This document shows, piece after piece, positions 19,765 through 25,490 of a stretch of 25,490 nucleotides of DNA; the stretch's first letter is position 1; each line of letters opens with the position of its first letter. The stretch is from a virus. The position numbers and the translations under genes were made by a program. The notes under the pieces were generated by a model. It saw only the letters and a program-made list of their open reading frames with translations. It made no database searches and was not told the DNA's origin. The stretch lies in the UHGV virus genome UHGV-1755679. One strand, written 5' to 3'.

Positions 19765-21471
19765 TTACTCAGAGTCACCGGCATCAATCGTGTCTCCGCT
19801 AATGAAGTTAAGCCCGCCTTTTTTGGCCATTGTCAGCGTTACACGAGTGAAGTAATCAGCGCCGTTGCGTGGGTGCATATCGTTGATAGCCGAACCCCAC
19901 AGCGTGGTACGGTTGACCAGCGCCGGAGTGGTCGGATGCTGGAACGGGATGGCCGGGACAGCATCACCAGTCACGAAGCCTGCTTTACCCGGATTTTCAT
20001 CACGGACGTAGCACAGCACATCCATCGAGCTGAACTGAATGTTCTCTGTCGTTAAGTTCTTACAAATACCAGCAGGTACTTCGTACACTTTCACGTTACC
20101 GAACAGGGTACCGATGTAGTGAACATACGGAGTCTGGATATAGTCTTCGGCTGGCTGGAAGAAATCCTTCGGCAACTGTTTGAAGAAAGATGCTGCATCA
20201 GCACCAGCAAACATCCCCATCGCACCAGAAGATTTAACGCGCTCAATAATGTCGCGATATACAGTCTGGAATTTGCCACGAATGATGGTTGCCCATACAT
20301 CAAAGGACTGGTTAACCGGCAGAGCGATGTCAAAGGTGTCGGTCGCAAGAGTACGCCAGATCATGATGCGAAGACGCAGCATATCCTGTTCATGAGACAG
20401 GTATTCCTTCAGGGTGCGGAACTGTAGGGAACCCAGGTCCAGACCAAATTCACGCTGTGCTTCATACGCCGCCTGTACCGTGTGCTCAGCCGCGATAACG
20501 AACTGGCTTGGGAACAGGGTGTATTTCTTCATTTCGTGGTTGATCAGCGGGATCAGCTCAGGAGCGGCTTCAATATTGATTTCCGTCTCAATTGCGATCT
20601 CAGTGCCTTTATCCGGCGCTTTGGAGAACGACAGGGCAATCTGACCAATGTTGTAGTTCAGAGAGCAGGTAACAGTGATTTGCTCACCAGCAGCATTAGT
20701 AAACGAGTGAAGTAGGCTGCCGGAACCGTTATCAACAACAGACTTAATACGGTTAACGTAGATATTAGTGCGACCTTTTCGGATTGGTACATTCTGGCCT
20801 TCGAAGTCTTCCATCTTGAAGGTTGCGGTTTTGCTGGTGCCATCGGAGCTTGCCACCAGCACATAGCGGCGGCGTAACTGGCTGTACACACCGACGGATT
20901 GCATGTCCAGAACATCACCAGCAGCATAAGAACCAAAAGAGGAACCTGCCACGTTAAAGACTTCATAGATGTCGGACTGGTCACGCGTAACCGGAATGAA
21001 GGTACACGCATCAGCGGTAGCTGCCCCCAACTGAACAGGCAGGATCATCGCGAGGAATAAAGGCAGACGCATAACACCGTCAGAAACGCTCATCATCTCT
21101 GCTGCGACGGATTCCAGCATCGCTTTATTAGTGGCATCCATGCTATTGCGGGTGGACTCAATCAGGCAGTTTTCCAGCGTCTGGTGGCAGGAGGCCAGAA
21201 TTTCCGGACGCGGCATAGATTTATGTGCTGCGGCGTAGTCAGCCAGTGCACTTGCCCACGCTGTAGCGATTTGAGCGGTGGCATTATCAGAGATACCCGC
21301 AAAAACCGGGTCTTTACGTGCAGCTTCAAGGATAGATGCGGCACGCGCGGCATCATCTTTAATGAATTGGTTATCAGTACCGAACTGCGCAGTGCTTGCC
21401 CAGCCAAGCACAGCTTTAGAGCGTTTTGCGATATCTGCAATACGATTCTGGTATTCGCGTAAGTTACTCAA
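19765..21471 (-). CDS. Major head (capsid) protein precursor, gene 23 position
   Basis: Frame is open from 21492 (TTG, no SD) per the ORF track; the TTG at 21469-21471 is preceded by SD AAGGAAGAG with 6-nt spacing and is the likelier start (about 568 aa). Lies immediately before parS as P1 gene 23 does. Start codon uncertain. Confidence 0.6.
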   Translation of the reverse strand: MSNLREYQNRIADIAKRSKAVLGWASTAQFGTDNQFIKDDAARAASILEAARKDPVFAGISDNATAQIATAWASALADYAAAHKSMPRPEILASCHQTLENCLIESTRNSMDATNKAMLESVAAEMMSVSDGVMRLPLFLAMILPVQLGAATADACTFIPVTRDQSDIYEVFNVAGSSFGSYAAGDVLDMQSVGVYSQLRRRYVLVASSDGTSKTATFKMEDFEGQNVPIRKGRTNIYVNRIKSVVDNGSGSLLHSFTNAAGEQITVTCSLNYNIGQIALSFSKAPDKGTEIAIETEINIEAAPELIPLINHEMKKYTLFPSQFVIAAEHTVQAAYEAQREFGLDLGSLQFRTLKEYLSHEQDMLRLRIMIWRTLATDTFDIALPVNQSFDVWATIIRGKFQTVYRDIIERVKSSGAMGMFAGADAASFFKQLPKDFFQPAEDYIQTPYVHYIGTLFGNVKVYEVPAGICKNLTTENIQFSSMDVLCYVRDENPGKAGFVTGDAVPAIPFQHPTTPALVNRTTLWGSAINDMHPRNGADYFTRVTLTMAKKGGLNFISGDTIDAGDSE

Positions 21472-21607
21472 TTTACTCTTCCTTAAACACAAGGCACTTG
21501 TGTGAATCCCTTTTCGGAAGAGATTTTATTGAAAGTCACTTGTTGACTTTCTCGTGACAAGCAATTTTTTTATTTTTTTCGGGAGTAGGGGAGGAAGGTA
21601 AAATCCA

Positions 21608-21696: not shown

Positions 21697-22698
21697 TTAA
21701 GGCTTCGGCTTTTTATCGAGGCTCTTTCTAAGGATATGCCCAATCATCCTGTCGAGTTCTTCCTGTAGCTCTTTTGAAAGTCGATTAAACTCATAAGAAA
21801 ATGCACGGCCTTTCACGCGCTTCCTTGCAAAGCGATCCTTGTCCTCAAATTTCCATAATTCAGTAACTACGGACTTATCTTTAGAACCTTTATCCGTGAG
21901 TAGTGAGGCTTCCTTTGTTATCAAGCGCAGGATTTTATTTTTAACTTCATCTTCGGCCATTTCTTCAATGGATAAGATGTCGTTTATTTCCGGGGATATG
22001 TTTTGAATAAGCTGATCAAACTCTAAATTCTTGTTCCCCATTTCGTCGCCAACAGCACAAAGCGTTTTGTAGTCCGAAAAGGTTAATTCCGACTGAACAG
22101 GGAAAAGGGCGACTAATTCTTCCGGAGCACTCGCTGCCTGGAGAGCACGCGTGACCTTCGCCTGAGACAGCCCTTCTTTGGCTGCAATATCCTTCTGACT
22201 CATCCCATCATTTTTCATTCGCATCAAACGCAGACCTATTTCTCGAATGCTGTGCTGCAATGCTGTCTGAACGTCTTTCGCTAAATTTTGCGCTTCCTGA
22301 ACGCTGATCTCCTGGTCCGTGACTAAAACCCGCAACCCTACGTTCTCTAAGATGGCAGAAGCTCGACGCCGGGAACCATCCAAAATTTCAATTTTCCCTG
22401 TAGCCCGTCTAACACCTATTGCAGGGTAAAATTGCTGATGCTTAATAGTGCTTCGGATACTTTTTAATGATTTTGGCGTAAGAGATGCCTGGTCACGCCC
22501 GTTGTTATGCTGATCAACAAAGGTATCGCTTTCTACCTGGTTCGGAGGTATTACCTCTTCAATAAATGTGGCCTGGCGACCAGTTGATAACTTGAATACC
22601 TGCTCGACTCGATCGCCAGAGGCTGAAGAACTATCAAATCCGCTTAATATTGAAGGATTAAGGGTTCGCCCAATTGTTGGTCTGTTTTTCTTTGACAT
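21697..22698 (-). CDS. parB: Partition protein ParB (333 aa), centromere-binding
   Basis: ATG at 22696-22698; the translation (MSKKNRPTIGRTLNPSILSGFDSS ... LDKKPKP) matches P1 ParB as I recall it, with the same length. Confidence 0.95.
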   Translation of the reverse strand: MSKKNRPTIGRTLNPSILSGFDSSSASGDRVEQVFKLSTGRQATFIEEVIPPNQVESDTFVDQHNNGRDQASLTPKSLKSIRSTIKHQQFYPAIGVRRATGKIEILDGSRRRASAILENVGLRVLVTDQEISVQEAQNLAKDVQTALQHSIREIGLRLMRMKNDGMSQKDIAAKEGLSQAKVTRALQAASAPEELVALFPVQSELTFSDYKTLCAVGDEMGNKNLEFDQLIQNISPEINDILSIEEMAEDEVKNKILRLITKEASLLTDKGSKDKSVVTELWKFEDKDRFARKRVKGRAFSYEFNRLSKELQEELDRMIGHILRKSLDKKPKP

Positions 22699-22714: not shown

Positions 22715-23911
22715 TCAGTTAGATCTGATAAATTCAATACGGTCAAAAACTGCTTTAGCAAAATCTTCCGCGGCAATTCGCGCGTTCTTCAATGCATCAG
22801 CACTACCAACATACGTTGCCGGGTTAGCTGAAATAACAGTGTCAAAAGACTCGCCGCAGCGTTCAAAACCGTCAAGGCGAGGGAGGACGACATCAAGCAT
22901 ATCCCCACCGAACACTTCTTTAGCCAGGCTATGGCAATACTTATGATCTGCCTTGTTACTCAACTTGGACATAAAACCAATGTTAGTCGCAAGCTGGCAC
23001 TCGCAGCCTTCATCCGAAATGAGTTTTACCAACTCAGGAAGGCGGGCAACGTATTTAAGCGATGAGTGGAAATCGACAGTTGCTGGCGGCAGAGGTGTAA
23101 ACAGTATATTGGCCGAGGCCAAAGCATTTTTCAGGAAGGCGTCAAGGTGAGGACCACTATCAACGAGGATAAAGTCATAATCGCTCTTCAGCTTATCAAT
23201 CACATTTTCTTTCAGGACAGCATGGATGTTCTGACCCGGTAGATGCTCATTGCACAGCTCTCTCCAATCGGATGCAATAAAGGCATCGTCAATCGACGCA
23301 GGCATAACGTCAACCCCAGGTACAACAGAAGGAACAATAAACTCCTCTAACAGCTCTTCACGGCTTACATTCTGCAACATAGCCTGTGCAGATGTTGCGT
23401 TTACGATACCAATAGAGTGTTTATGGCTTAAAAACATCGTTGCTGAAGATTGCGGATCAAGGTCAATAACCAGAATCCTTAAATCTTCCATCAGAAGATG
23501 AGGGTGGGCACGCATTGCATGCGCCAGAGAAACCGTCGATACAGTTTTTGACACACCGCCTTTAAGATTGGAGATGAAAATCACATACGCTTCGCTGTAG
23601 CGATCCCGGTATTTTGGCACTCCGCGATGTTCATATATGTCAATGATGTTCTGAATTGACATCGCATATTTCATTGAAGAGCCAGCAGGGCGTTTATCGA
23701 AAACATAACCCTTTTCTTCCATTTCACTTACGGCATAGTCAACGTTCGCTCGAGTCAGTAGAGGCAATTTTGCCAGTGCCGCTTTCGCATAGACCTGGTA
23801 AAACTCGTTCGCGTGTAGCTCATCCTTTTGCAACTGTACTTGTTCAGTCAGAACATTGAGCATTCTGTTTGCTCTTTGAGCAACCTTGTGAAGCTGGCTG
23901 GAATCACTCAT
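22715..23911 (-). CDS. parA: Partition ATPase ParA (398 aa), Walker-type deviant ATPase
   Basis: ATG at 23909-23911; the translation (MSDSSQLHKVAQRANRMLNVL ... with Walker A KGGVSKT) matches P1 ParA as I recall it. Confidence 0.95.
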   Translation of the reverse strand: MSDSSQLHKVAQRANRMLNVLTEQVQLQKDELHANEFYQVYAKAALAKLPLLTRANVDYAVSEMEEKGYVFDKRPAGSSMKYAMSIQNIIDIYEHRGVPKYRDRYSEAYVIFISNLKGGVSKTVSTVSLAHAMRAHPHLLMEDLRILVIDLDPQSSATMFLSHKHSIGIVNATSAQAMLQNVSREELLEEFIVPSVVPGVDVMPASIDDAFIASDWRELCNEHLPGQNIHAVLKENVIDKLKSDYDFILVDSGPHLDAFLKNALASANILFTPLPPATVDFHSSLKYVARLPELVKLISDEGCECQLATNIGFMSKLSNKADHKYCHSLAKEVFGGDMLDVVLPRLDGFERCGESFDTVISANPATYVGSADALKNARIAAEDFAKAVFDRIEFIRSN

Positions 23912-24040
23912 CGAAAGTCATCCTTTATGCTGTATTTTTGAATTTAATTAAAAATGCTGCATAAAATAATAATGTATGCGTAGATGCTTGTACATAGCAT
24001 TCTCTGCATGTTTGGTTCATTTTGCACGATTGAGAGTTAC
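23912..24040 (-). promoter_or_regulatory. par operon promoter/operator region (AT-rich, with imperfect inverted repeats)
   Basis: AT-rich 130-bp stretch directly upstream of parA containing repeated TGCTGCAT / ATGCAGCA-type elements; assignment by position. Confidence 0.35.
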
Positions 24041-24051
24041 AAGAAAGGCAC

Positions 24052-24072
24052 AAAAAAGCCCCGTTCAGGGGC
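24052..24072 (-). terminator. Intrinsic terminator of the T5orf172-domain gene
   Basis: Stem GCCCC / GGGGC (5-nt loop) followed on the minus strand by TTTTTT, starting 8 nt after the ORF stop codon. Confidence 0.6.
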
Positions 24073-24079
24073 ATCAGTG

Positions 24080-24889
24080 TTATTTGCTAAGAGCAGCGAA
24101 TAATCGTTCGAAATCGATAGTATCTATAGCACGCGTAAGCGCCGGAAGTTCAGCCTCAAAGTACCCGTGTCGATCGTAAAAGAAGGGACCGAAGAGCGAG
24201 GCATGTTGGATTCTACTTCGCCCCAGCCCGGACACACAGTTAAGCCCATTACCGGCTAAAAGGCTAAAAAACTTCTCTGGATTATCGTGGTAAAGCTGGG
24301 AATCAATGGTGGCGGTTAACTCTTCCATAGGGAAGCACACCCGCCCTGTATCCCAGGGATATTTAGTCCGAAGCATAAACATTGCTTTCAGCAATTCACA
24401 TTGAGCGCGGATCGCGTCCGGTTCATAGCCAGATATGGAGACATAAGCCACGTCCCTCATTCCTGCGTCATCTTTGAAAGTCACGATAGAAGTAACATCC
24501 AGCTCTTTTTCGAAAGAGCAAGCAGCATCTACTGGACGCTGAAGTAAATCATTCGACTTAATGCGCTCGAGAATCCCTCCCCACATATCATTTAGATATT
24601 CGATATGAGCCAAAACCTTATCAAGACACTCTCGTGTAAACCATTCAGTATGCCCGCCACCGACGCTTTTCTCCCACGGCGCATTCCAGGGGAAAAAGGT
24701 TGCGTGTAAAGCCCGCTCAAGATTAACCATTGCCAAACGTGTACCACGATAGACCCGTGAAAGCGCAAAATCGGGACTCACTTGTAGCCCTTTAAACCGT
24801 GCCAATGGACCACATGAAATGCCGATTTTAAAAGTATCTCCGTTCTCTGGCACCAGAACGTAGAGGTAGTGTTGTTTCTCTTCTTGCAT
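24080..24889 (-). CDS. Protein (269 aa) with N-terminal T5orf172/MUG113 (GIY-YIG-like) domain; function unknown
   Basis: ATG at 24887-24889; the N-terminal about 90 aa show the domain signature YLYVLVPENGDTFKIGIS ... LERALHATF ... GGGHTEWF; the C-terminal about 150 aa carry no motif I recognise. Own terminator downstream; sits between the iteron array and the par promoter. Confidence 0.6.
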   Translation of the reverse strand: MQEEKQHYLYVLVPENGDTFKIGISCGPLARFKGLQVSPDFALSRVYRGTRLAMVNLERALHATFFPWNAPWEKSVGGGHTEWFTRECLDKVLAHIEYLNDMWGGILERIKSNDLLQRPVDAACSFEKELDVTSIVTFKDDAGMRDVAYVSISGYEPDAIRAQCELLKAMFMLRTKYPWDTGRVCFPMEELTATIDSQLYHDNPEKFFSLLAGNGLNCVSGLGRSRIQHASLFGPFFYDRHGYFEAELPALTRAIDTIDFERLFAALSK

Positions 24890-24920
24890 ATCAATACCAC
24901 TGCTTGATGAGAACCGCGCA

Positions 24921-25180
24921 AATGTTGACTATGCGCGAAGGTTAATGTGAATAGTTGACTATGCGCGATGTGACTACAGTCAAAAGTTGACTGTAGTCGA
25001 TTTAACTCCACCAAAGATCGACTATGTAAGATATTGTCGGGAGAAACGTTGACTATACGCGATGAAATGACCCTAAAAGCCATCTCAATAGCGACTTGCA
25101 GAATATTGACGCCAGCAAAAATCCACCAGCGTCAACGAATGTCGCCTATAGTCAACTTCTCGCTATCGCATATAGTCAAT
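24921..25180. repeat. Iteron array: at least 5 direct 15-bp repeats (consensus GTTGACTATGCGCGA) phased at about 31 bp, plus 2-3 inverted copies
   Basis: Direct copies at 24923-24937, 24954-24968, 24986-25000, 25018-25032 (diverged) and 25048-25062; inverted copies at about 24971-24984, 25143-25157 and 25166-25180. Located just downstream of the Rep-like ORF, like incA/incC control iterons. Confidence 0.75.
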
Positions 25181-25181
25181 A

Positions 25182-25417
25182 TTATGGATTGCGCTTATGG
25201 ATCTGGAAGCCGATTTTTCTGCCGTTTTTTATCTCTGAAAATTTAAGATATTCAATAGCTTCCAAATCTTTCATGGCTTTTCTGATAACGCTATTTTGCA
25301 CGCTAACGGATGATTTGAGATTAAGCCTTGCTCTAAGGCGCTCAATGCTGACAGGTGCCGGGTTGGCGGGTAGAGCCTCAAAGAATGTATACAGCACCTT
25401 GGCCGTCTCTTTGCGCC
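25182..25417 (-). CDS. Rep_3-family (iteron-binding) replication initiator, C-terminal fragment; 5' end truncated by the contig/adapter boundary
   Basis: The reading frame is open from the adapter junction to the stop at 25182; the C-terminal motif ...SIERLRARLNL ... IRKAMKDLEAIEYLKFSEIKNGRKIGFQIH resembles the conserved C-terminal winged-helix region of Rep_3 initiators (kkGrkI..F.I pattern); followed by the iteron array. Confidence 0.5.
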
Positions 25418-25490
25418 CTGTCTCTTATACACATCTCCGAGCCCACGAGACGGACTCCTATCTCGTATGCCGTCTTCTGCTTGAAAAAAA
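25418..25490. other. Illumina Nextera adapter (reverse complement of the same P7/index/mosaic-end adapter) followed by a poly-A run; not biological sequence
   Basis: CTGTCTCTTATACACATCTCCGAGCCCACGAGAC + GGACTCCT + ATCTCGTATGCCGTCTTCTGCTTG, then AAAAAAA. Confidence 0.95.

What the first reader, a model, noticed from the sequence alone, without database searches (positions are those of the whole stretch)
24045..24925. Extra gene between the iteron array and parAB: T5orf172 (GIY-YIG-like) domain protein with its own terminator
In canonical P1, as I recall the map, the incA iterons run directly into the parA promoter. Here an 810-bp ORF (24080-24889, minus strand) sits in that gap with its own intrinsic terminator (24052-24072). 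Its N-terminus carries the T5orf172/MUG113 signature (YLYVLVPENGDTFKIGIS ... LERALH ... GGGHTEWF), a GIY-YIG-superfamily fold found in phage and defence-island proteins; the C-terminal 150 aa are unrecognisable to me. The start codon is only about 35 bp from the nearest iteron, so its promoter probably overlaps Rep-binding repeats, which would tie its expression to initiator occupancy or copy number. This is the best candidate in the window for an undescribed cargo function (nuclease-like defence or anti-defence, or a maintenance accessory) lodged in the replicon/partition junction.
Basis: partly seen in the sequence, partly recalled or inferred. Interest (0 to 1): 0.7.

Follow-up and report, generated by a model that had tools for sequence, protein, structure and literature searches.

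The report
Nuclease gene in P1-plasmid replicon cassette
The extra gene is real and encodes a probable DNA-cutting enzyme, but it is a common, already annotated part of the alternative "p0111" replication module carried by many P1-like phage-plasmids, and what it does has never been tested.

Summary
An 810-bp ORF (24080-24889, minus strand) lies 36 nt from the nearest iteron and has its own terminator. It passes Pfam's T5orf172 threshold.

The framing is wrong. The iterons are not P1 incA. From 24011 onward the window has no similarity to P1. A 2.26-kb cassette (terminator, this ORF, iterons, p0111-type repA, origin iterons) replaces P1's 1.5-kb IncY replicon.

The ORF always travels with this repA. 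It occurs in about 400 PLSDB plasmids, 12 phage records and 412 of 5,426 complete E. coli genomes. PGAP names it "GIY-YIG nuclease family protein", and the JL22 paper calls it unknown gene gp57.

The family residues are retained, including E58, which aligns with Odn's experimentally required E180. The C-terminal 165 aa have no homologue among 1.84 billion representative proteins. Low-confidence fold hits point weakly to winged-helix domains of Rep initiators.

The gene is constrained (omega 0.2-0.3), about ten times less than its neighbours, and roughly 10 of 72 loci carry inactivated alleles.

Best guess: a homing-type or rival-replicon-directed endonuclease riding the cassette. This is inferred, not shown. 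No support was found for a known defence system. Interest is modest.

The parts
24080..24889 (-). ORF of 269 aa: T5orf172 (GIY-YIG superfamily) protein, annotated elsewhere as 'GIY-YIG nuclease family protein'; phrog_2876
   Evidence: 99-100% identical copies
24575..24889 (-). N-terminal nuclease domain (residues 1-105). Family-conserved Y10, K21-x-G23, R31, E58 (= Odn E180), H62 and E82 are all retained. It is 64% identical to the only distant homologue, P0004
24083..24574 (-). C-terminal domain (residues 106-269), private to this lineage and 33% identical to P0004. It may be winged-helix-like (weak fold hits to Rep initiator WH1 domains)
24049..24072 (-). Intrinsic terminator: 5-bp GC stem, 5-nt loop, T6 run. 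It shields the par promoter from upstream transcription
24010..24011 (.). Left boundary of the replicon cassette. The window is 100% identical to IncY P1 up to 24010 and has no similarity from 24011. The boundary is 70 bp from the ORF stop and 16 bp upstream of the Ppar -35 hexamer
23966..23994 (-). par operon promoter Ppar (TGTACA, 17 nt, TATTAT), on the P1-homologous side of the boundary
   Evidence: P1 annotation
24920..25179 (.). Iteron array downstream of repA (consensus ~TTGACTATGCGCGA). In gene sense there are two direct copies followed by five inverted copies, spaced about 31 bp. These are not P1 incA iterons
   Evidence: the same layout occurs in L003 and L004
25182..25418 (-). 3' end of the p0111-type (RepFIB-like, Rep_3 family) repA, cut off by the contig end. 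The full gene is 294 aa in RCS47
22715..23911 (-). parA, P1-type, immediately downstream of the cassette

Best explanation
The ORF encodes a sequence-directed DNA endonuclease. It has an N-terminal T5orf172/GIY-YIG catalytic domain and a fast-evolving, lineage-private C-terminal domain that supplies target recognition. It is a constant passenger of the 2.26-kb p0111-type replicon cassette that replaces the IncY replicon in about 40% of P1-like phage-plasmids.

The most likely role is selfish or competitive, like the free-standing T5orf172 homing endonucleases of phage ICP1. When a P1-like genome lacking the cassette shares a cell, the enzyme would cut it in or next to the segment the cassette replaces. 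Repair from the cassette-bearing genome, through the near-identical flanks (par promoter/parA on one side, the GATC/DnaA-box half of oriR on the other), would copy the whole cassette, nuclease included. Failing repair, the rival is simply destroyed.

Expression is probably low and tied to repA transcription through the iteron array.

Shown: gene, domain family, conserved family residues, cassette boundaries, linkage to repA, purifying but relaxed selection, recurrent inactivation.
Inferred: nuclease activity, DNA binding by the C-domain, target, homing or exclusion, co-transcription.
For: - Family: T5orf172 above Pfam's gathering score; phrog_681 'endonuclease' at 7e-9.
- Key residues: Y10, K21, G23, R31, E58, H62 and E82 are invariant across the window protein, its 44% homologue, P0006 and Odn. 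E58 aligns with Odn E180, whose mutation abolishes cleavage (PMC8263062).
- Position: the ORF stop is 70 bp from a clean exchange boundary, with 100% identity to IncY P1 up to 24010 and none beyond. The other boundary lies inside oriR, 25 bp past the last incC iteron. [quoted passage not shown]
- Population pattern of a selfish or accessory nuclease: omega 0.18-0.31, against 0.02-0.09 for parA, rep, parB and gp23. There are three independent nonsense alleles, one frameshift and insertions, in about 10 of 72 loci, with none in the neighbours.
- Long-term divergence agrees: 44% amino-acid identity in L003, against 84% for Rep and 89% for ParA, with the C-domain fastest at 33%.
- A related rep with the same iteron type exists without the gene (L004), so replication does not need it.
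- Weak SD, no consensus promoter and no terminator after repA.
Against: - The gene is never seen moving on its own. It is always linked to p0111 repA (399 vs 402 records), so the presence/absence polymorphism typical of homing endonuclease genes exists only at the level of the whole cassette.
- Plain modular replicon exchange by homologous recombination would give the same boundaries without any nuclease.
- No DNA-binding domain is demonstrable. The C-domain has no sequence homologue, and both AF2 models are low confidence (pLDDT 62 and 44).
- It lacks the CapR/DUF723/DUF4397 zinc-finger DNA-binding domains found in 87% of the T5orf172 homing endonucleases surveyed in PMC10448857 (no such Pfam match).
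- No target site is known.
- Most alleles are intact and under purifying selection. That fits a host- or plasmid-beneficial function as well as a selfish one.
Confidence: 0.35

Rival explanations
1. Odn-like origin-directed nuclease. The C-terminal domain is a Rep-type winged helix that recognises iterons of a competing replicon (for example the IncY incA/incC iterons of P1, or another plasmid or satellite). The T5orf172 domain cuts there. This would be an incompatibility weapon rather than a classical homing enzyme. It is a special case of the best explanation, with a defined target class.
For: - The architecture parallels ICP1 Odn and the coliphage Odn-like proteins, which pair T5orf172 with a Rep DNA-binding domain (PMC8263062, PMC10448857).
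- The segment replaced in P1 is essentially the iteron-repA-iteron block.
Against: - The C-domain-only model is worse.
- There is no sequence or profile similarity to p0111 RepA, P1 RepA or relatives (BLASTP; hhalign probability 0.1%).
- Exhaustive HMMER finds no Rep protein.
- Winged-helix-like folds are very common.
Confidence: 0.13
2. Catalytically competent or domesticated DNA-binding accessory of the replicon/partition junction, analogous to CapR, a T5orf172-derived repressor. It would bind near the iterons or Ppar to tune repA/par expression, copy number or handcuffing.
For: - It is strictly linked to this repA and conserved in position between the downstream iterons and parA, even in the 44%-identical L003 element.
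- There is a precedent for T5orf172-family proteins acting as repressors (CapR; PMC10448857 and bioRxiv 10.1101/2020.11.28.402263).
- It is probably co-transcribed with repA.
Against: - The family-conserved residues are all retained. That is not expected for a pure regulator, though it does not exclude one.
- Inactivated alleles are frequent in apparently stable plasmids, including the reference phage SJ46 and a pO111_2-sized contig.
- A related rep and iteron set works without it (L004).
- It evolves about ten times faster than the proteins it would regulate.
Confidence: 0.12
3. Single-gene anti-phage or anti-plasmid defence (or counter-defence) nuclease carried as cargo, protecting the lysogen from unrelated invaders.
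For: - It is a nuclease-family protein on a phage-plasmid.
- It evolves fast and its C-domain is lineage-private.
- It is frequently lost.
- P1-like elements carry defence genes in variable regions (PMC9603915).
Against: - No PADLOC model matches and no NCBIfam model matches.
- It does not sit in one of the variable cargo regions as an independently mobile gene. It is invariably tied to one replicon type.
- There are no partner genes.
- The family is confined to one plasmid lineage rather than spread over defence islands.
Confidence: 0.12
4. Hitchhiking remnant. The gene came with the p0111 replicon from its previous host element and has no current role in P1-like plasmids.
For: - Recurrent nonsense, frameshift and IS alleles.
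- Weak translation signals.
- A related replicon works without it.
Against: - Omega of 0.2-0.3 with 37 synonymous against 40 non-synonymous variants shows continuing purifying selection.
- The frame and all motif residues have been kept over the divergence to L003 at 44% identity.
- About 86% of loci are intact.
Confidence: 0.08

Closest known systems
Free-standing T5orf172 homing endonuclease genes of Vibrio phage ICP1 and relatives (Barth, Dunham & Seed 2023, PMC10448857)
   Same: Same Pfam domain (PF10544). Two-part build, with a nuclease at one end and a variable targeting region at the other. Located at the edge of a recombination tract next to essential genes. Frequent frameshift or nonsense alleles. 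The weak tblastn matches of the N-domain are mainly to Vibrio phage 'endonuclease' genes.
   Different: The nuclease domain is N-terminal here. There is no CapR/DUF723/DUF4397 zinc-finger DNA-binding domain. The gene sits in a plasmid-maintenance module of a temperate phage-plasmid rather than a lytic phage. It is never found apart from one repA type. Homing is unproven.
Odn (ICP1 gp88), the origin-directed nuclease (Barth et al. 2021, PMC8263062)
   Same: T5orf172 nuclease whose required Glu (E180) aligns with E58 here. Functionally connected to an iteron-type replicon. Weak fold hints that the second domain resembles a Rep DNA-binding domain.
   Different: Odn's DNA-binding domain is N-terminal, of the RepA_N type, and 42% identical to its target's RepA. 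Here there is no detectable sequence similarity to any Rep. The gene lies beside its own plasmid's iterons rather than in a predator genome.
CapR of PLE satellites (domesticated T5orf172-family repressor)
   Same: It shows that this family can be recruited as a sequence-specific DNA-binding regulator. This is relevant to the regulator rival.
   Different: CapR homology lies in the zinc-finger DNA-binding domain, which is absent here. Here the nuclease motif residues are intact.
T4 Seg proteins / I-TevI (GIY-YIG free-standing and intron homing endonucleases) and SLX1
   Different: No sequence-level match to these proteins. The T5orf172 subfamily has a different motif spelling (LYV...KIG). The C-terminal domain is unrelated.
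The p0111 / RepFIB-like replicon of P1-like phage-plasmids (RCS47, SJ46, JL22, pO111_2)
   Same: The window is this replicon type at 99-100% identity. The ORF is JL22 'gp57' and the PGAP 'GIY-YIG nuclease family protein'.
   Different: Nothing. This is the same, already catalogued module. Only the gene's function is unstudied.

Membership tests
T5orf172 domain family (Pfam PF10544, GIY-YIG clan) | Profile HMM match above the curated gathering score | tested here: met
   26.9 bits vs cut-off 20, E 6.9e-6, residues 8-85 covering profile positions 2-87 of 101. The related MUG113 is below its cut-off.
T5orf172 domain family (Pfam PF10544, GIY-YIG clan) | Conserved motif Tyr, Arg and Glu residues retained | tested here: met
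   Y10, K21-x-G23, R31, E58, H62 and E82 are invariant in the alignment with P0004, P0006 and Odn. E58 aligns with Odn E180, which is experimentally required (PMC8263062).
T5orf172 domain family (Pfam PF10544, GIY-YIG clan) | GIY-YIG (URI) fold | tested here: met
T5orf172 domain family (Pfam PF10544, GIY-YIG clan) | Endonuclease activity | not testable with these tools
   Needs purified protein and cleavage assays.
Free-standing homing endonuclease gene | Presence/absence polymorphism at one locus among otherwise near-identical genomes | tested here: inconclusive
   The flank is 100% identical to gene-less P1 up to 24010. However, the polymorphism involves the whole 2.26-kb replicon cassette, never the gene alone.
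Free-standing homing endonuclease gene | Sits at the boundary of an exchanged tract, next to essential genes | tested here: met
   The stop codon is 70 bp from the left cassette boundary, between repA and parA.
Free-standing homing endonuclease gene | Recurrent degeneration (frameshift, nonsense, insertion alleles) | tested here: met
   W68*, S112*, Q228*, a 1-bp deletion, a 1.76-kb insert and an IS1 insertion. About 10 of 72 loci are affected, with none in rep, parA, parB or gp23.
Free-standing homing endonuclease gene | A recognisable DNA-binding domain joined to the nuclease | tested here: inconclusive
   No Pfam or HMMER homologue of the C-domain. Only weak winged-helix fold hits on a low-confidence model.
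Free-standing homing endonuclease gene | Cleaves the gene-less allele and is copied into it | not testable with these tools
   Needs in vitro cleavage and co-infection or co-residence crosses.
Odn-like origin-directed nuclease | DNA-binding domain with detectable sequence homology to a replication initiator | tested here: not met
   BLASTP vs P1 RepA, p0111 RepA, L003 and L004 Rep gave only chance hits. hhalign probability 0.1%. No Rep protein among 1.84e9 representatives.
Odn-like origin-directed nuclease | Structural resemblance of the second domain to an initiator DNA-binding domain | tested here: inconclusive
Known anti-phage defence systems (PADLOC-DB 2.0) | Match to any defence protein model | tested here: not met
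   0 families at E <= 1.
   Window 24011-25418 has no blastn hit in P1. The iteron consensus TTGACTATGCGCGA is unrelated to P1's annotated 19-bp iterons. RepA is only about 41% identical.

The most novel reading that the evidence does not exclude
The p0111 cassette would be a self-propagating 'replicon-homing' unit. Its T5orf172 protein would be a convergently evolved origin-directed nuclease whose private winged-helix C-domain recognises the iterons of the rival IncY (P1) replicon. By cutting them it would destroy the rival or convert it to p0111. This would explain both the sharp cassette boundaries just outside the IncY iteron blocks and the roughly 56:44 IncY/p0111 split among P1-like phage-plasmids.
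Probability: 0.12. Interest if true: 0.75.

Novelty: new member of a known kind. Interest (0 to 1): 0.33.

Why it matters
P1-like phage-plasmids are frequent carriers of ESBL and mcr genes, and they come in two replicon types, IncY and p0111. If the nuclease that always accompanies the p0111 replicon cuts rival replicons or drives copying of its own cassette, it would be the first case of plasmid replicon replacement or incompatibility mediated by a homing-type nuclease. It would also extend the Odn principle (a nuclease aimed at a competitor's origin) from phage-satellite conflicts to plasmid competition. If it does not, this is simply one more lineage-specific T5orf172 gene of unknown role in a well-catalogued module.

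Tried and rejected
- Defence system: PADLOC gave no hit and NCBIfam gave no hit. Rejected as a known system.
- Insertion into the P1 incA-parA gap: rejected. The whole replicon differs, with boundaries at window 24010 and inside oriR.
- Chimeric origin of the C-domain from Rep, ParA or ParB: BLASTP gave only chance matches and hhalign gave probability 0.1%.
- A deeper alignment to improve the structure model: a k-mer search with the single sequence and then with the profile; scans of genome, viral and metagenome contigs; and an exhaustive HMMER search with the C-domain profile. All returned only the same family at 96% identity or more, its fragments, and one 44% relative.
- AF2 therefore stayed at pLDDT 62 for the full-length protein and 44 for the C-domain alone. 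Fold matches for the C-domain are leads only.
- The afdb50 fold library was unavailable.
- PDB sequence search: no hit.
- Rfam on 23800-25490: no RNA family.
- Own promoter overlapping the iterons: no consensus match on the coding strand between the last iteron and the ATG. This cannot be excluded.
- Elevated divergence of the ORF relative to its flanks comes from non-synonymous changes. dS is similar to that of parA and rep, so there is no evidence of a separate history for the ORF within the cassette.

Full report
**1. The observation**

The ORF at 24080-24889 on the minus strand (269 aa, ATG start) is present as described. Eight nucleotides after its stop codon lies GCCCCTGAACGGGGC followed by TTTTTT, which the terminator scan reports at 24072-24058. 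The region folds at -11.9 kcal/mol, z = -2.95 against shuffles.

Upstream lies an array of repeats with the consensus ~TTGACTATGCGCGA. Five copies with at most two mismatches all fall in 24925-25179, and two degenerate copies sit between them. The nearest copy starts 36 nt from the ATG.

Pfam places residues 8-85 in T5orf172 (PF10544) at 26.9 bits, above the gathering score of 20. MUG113 and Tox-URI2 are sub-threshold. PHROGs gives the protein its own family of unknown function (phrog_2876). Residues 4-100 also match phrog_681 'endonuclease' at 7e-9. All factual parts of the finding are therefore confirmed.

**2. What the surroundings really are**

The repeats are not P1 incA iterons. Megablast of 23900-25250 finds 99-100% identical sequence in 12 phage records (SJ46, RCS47, JL22, phi456, Ro157c2YLVW and others) and in 389 plasmids over at least 80% of the query. 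The annotation there is 'GIY-YIG nuclease family protein | RepB/RepFIB initiator | ParA'. Canonical P1 matches only the first 111 nt.

- Left boundary: the window is 100% identical to P1 through the par promoter and the first 400 nt of parA, up to 24010. From 24011 to 25418 it has no detectable similarity to P1.
- Size of the swap: comparing RCS47 with P1, a 2.26-kb segment replaces a 1.5-kb P1 segment. The RCS47 segment holds the terminator, this ORF, the downstream iterons, a 294-aa repA and the origin iterons. The P1 segment holds the spacer, incA, repA and the incC iterons.
- Right boundary: it lies inside oriR, 25 bp beyond the last incC iteron. The GATC/DnaA-box half of the origin is therefore shared.

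This is the known p0111 replicon type of P1-like phage-plasmids. [quoted passage not shown] The gene is present in 412 of 5,426 complete E. coli genomes, with 414 of 421 places on plasmids. It is essentially always linked to this repA: 399 plasmid records hold the rep junction and 402 hold the ORF.

**3. How narrow the family is**

- Among 5.8 billion clustered proteins, the only full-length relative below 96% identity is P0004, at 44%. Searching with the profile adds only an N-domain match.
- Scans of genome, viral and metagenome contigs returned 73 loci, all at 96% identity or more.
- P0004 lies on a 95.7-kb Logan contig that is a divergent P1-like element with the same order: rep, iterons, ORF, parA, parB, gp23.
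- In that element Rep is 84%, ParA 89% and gp23 80% identical, but this protein only 44%. The N-domain is 64% identical and the C-domain 33%.
- An exhaustive HMMER search with the C-domain profile against 1.84 billion representatives found five proteins. All belong to this same family: four are fragments or rearranged versions of the E. coli gene, and the fifth is P0004. The C-terminal about 165 residues are a lineage-private domain.
- A plasmid with a related rep (76% nt) and the same iteron type lacks the gene altogether (CP042620.1). Replication from this kind of origin therefore does not require it.

**4. Is it a working nuclease gene?**

The N-domain was aligned with P0004, P0006 and ICP1 Odn. 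Y10, K21, G23, S25, R31, E58, H62 and E82 are invariant. E58 pairs with Odn E180, the residue whose mutation abolishes cleavage in vitro and in vivo (PMC8263062).

Across about 70 loci the gene has 37 synonymous and 40 non-synonymous variants, a per-site ratio of 0.31. Pairwise omega is 0.18-0.29. The neighbours are much more constrained: parA 0.02, rep 0.03, parB 0.09 and gp23 0.09.

About 10 of 72 loci carry inactivating changes, and none occur in the four neighbouring genes:
- W68*
- S112* in five loci, including a 97,897-bp contig
- Q228* in two loci, including the SJ46 reference
- a 1-bp deletion
- a 1.76-kb insertion

Separately, an IS1 insertion is seen in one complete E. coli genome.

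The gene is thus maintained by selection but is much less constrained than its neighbours and is often lost. That is the pattern described for phage homing endonuclease genes (PMC10448857). It would also suit a dispensable accessory gene.

**5. The C-terminal domain**

There is no Pfam, NCBIfam, PADLOC or PDB sequence match. There is no similarity to p0111 RepA, P1 RepA, ParA or ParB by BLASTP or by profile-profile comparison (probability 0.1%).

On the low-confidence full-length model, residues 157-231 have a helix-strand-helix-helix-strand-strand order compatible with a winged helix. The best non-GIY-YIG structural neighbours are repeatedly iteron-binding initiators:
- Foldseek PDB: rank 1 is 6h24 at E 0.28.
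- BFVD: a 'COG5527 initiation of plasmid replication' protein at probability 0.90.

None of these is statistically significant. A model of the C-domain alone was worse (pLDDT 44). This is recorded as a lead, not a result.

**6. Expression**

The consensus scan finds no sigma-70-like site on the coding strand between the last iteron and the ATG, and no terminator between the repA stop (25182) and the ORF. The Shine-Dalgarno region is weak (AGTGGT, conserved in L003).

Read-through from the autoregulated repA promoter across the iteron array is therefore the simplest reading (inference). The terminator then insulates Ppar, which begins 16 bp past the cassette boundary.

**7. Most likely mechanism and rivals**

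Three observations frame the mechanism: the family, the intact motif residues, and the position 70 bp from a clean exchange boundary. There are also published precedents. T5orf172 genes in ICP1 act as homing endonuclease genes at boundaries of genetic exchange. Odn and the coliphage Odn-like proteins act as origin-directed nucleases.

The best-supported reading is a sequence-directed endonuclease with a selfish or competitive role tied to the p0111 cassette. It would cut cassette-less P1-like genomes in or near the replaced segment. The rival would then be lost, or repaired from the cassette-bearing genome through the near-identical flanks (confidence 0.35).

The Odn-like variant, in which the C-domain is a Rep-type winged helix aimed at rival iterons, is the most novel reading the data allow (about 0.12-0.13).

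Rivals:
- a domesticated regulator of the replicon/partition junction (0.12)
- a cargo defence nuclease (0.12; no PADLOC support, and the gene is never independent of the replicon)
- a functionless hitchhiker (0.08; contradicted by omega below 1)

Against the homing idea, the gene is never seen apart from the cassette, and ordinary modular recombination explains the boundaries equally well.

**8. Novelty and verdict**

The gene, its position and its family assignment are already in public annotation and in two papers. What is missing is any functional study.

It is a new member of a known kind: a T5orf172 endonuclease with a private second domain. Its location, inside the maintenance module of a clinically relevant phage-plasmid group, makes a simple and testable hypothesis possible. 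Interest is 0.33.

Noticed in passing
window 25419-25490: The window ends in an Illumina Nextera read-through adapter (CTGTCTCTTATACACATCTCCGAGCCCACGAGAC, index GGACTCCT, ATCTCGTATGCCGTCTTCTGCTTG, poly-A). Homology to RCS47 stops at 25418 and repA is cut there. This is an assembly artefact, not biology.
   Followed up: yes
L023 (SJ46, 103,445 bp) and L066; L027, L028, L030, L031, L032; L043; L073: The reference phage SJ46 carries Q228* in this gene. Five loci carry S112*, among them a 97,897-bp contig that I recall (untested) matches the size of pO111_2. One locus has W68* and one has a 1-bp deletion. Truncated products are in the protein database as separate clusters (P0002, P0003).
   Followed up: partly
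L046 6294-8058; NZ_CP100998.1 (H244): In L046, ORF nucleotides 295-523 are replaced by a roughly 1.76-kb insert that was not identified. In H244 an IS1 family transposase interrupts the gene.
   Followed up: no
L004 (CP042620.1, 93,655-bp E. coli plasmid) 4800-5950: A rep gene 76% identical in nucleotides, with the same iteron type, sits next to a phage tail gene. It has no T5orf172 gene and no adjacent parA. This appears to be a different phage-plasmid backbone using a related replicon.
   Followed up: partly
L003 (Logan ERR2144811_21, 95.7 kb): A divergent P1-like element of unknown host (gp23 80%, ParB 67%, PpfA 49% identical) has no close relative in PLSDB. The gene caller extended its T5orf172 ORF by 41 codons through the iterons. 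A hairpin follows its stop codon but without a T-run.
   Followed up: partly
window 24925-25179 versus P1 oriR (L002 6615-6728): The right-hand cassette boundary falls inside oriR. p0111-type elements therefore combine foreign iterons and repA with the P1 GATC-rich/DnaA-box half of the origin, making a hybrid origin.
   Followed up: partly
window 21697-22698 and 19765-21492 compared with L022, L026, L049, L064: Among p0111-type loci, parB, parS and gp23 occur as alleles 88-95% identical to the window, while rep, the ORF and parA stay at 97% or more. This is mosaic recombination of the par/capsid flank that does not follow replicon type.
   Followed up: partly
window 25090-25128 (minus strand: GTTGACGCTGGTGGATTTTTGCTGGCGTCAA): An imperfect inverted repeat lies between the two iteron groups. 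Its first half is conserved in L003. Its role is unknown; it may be a host-factor or RepA-related site.
   Followed up: no
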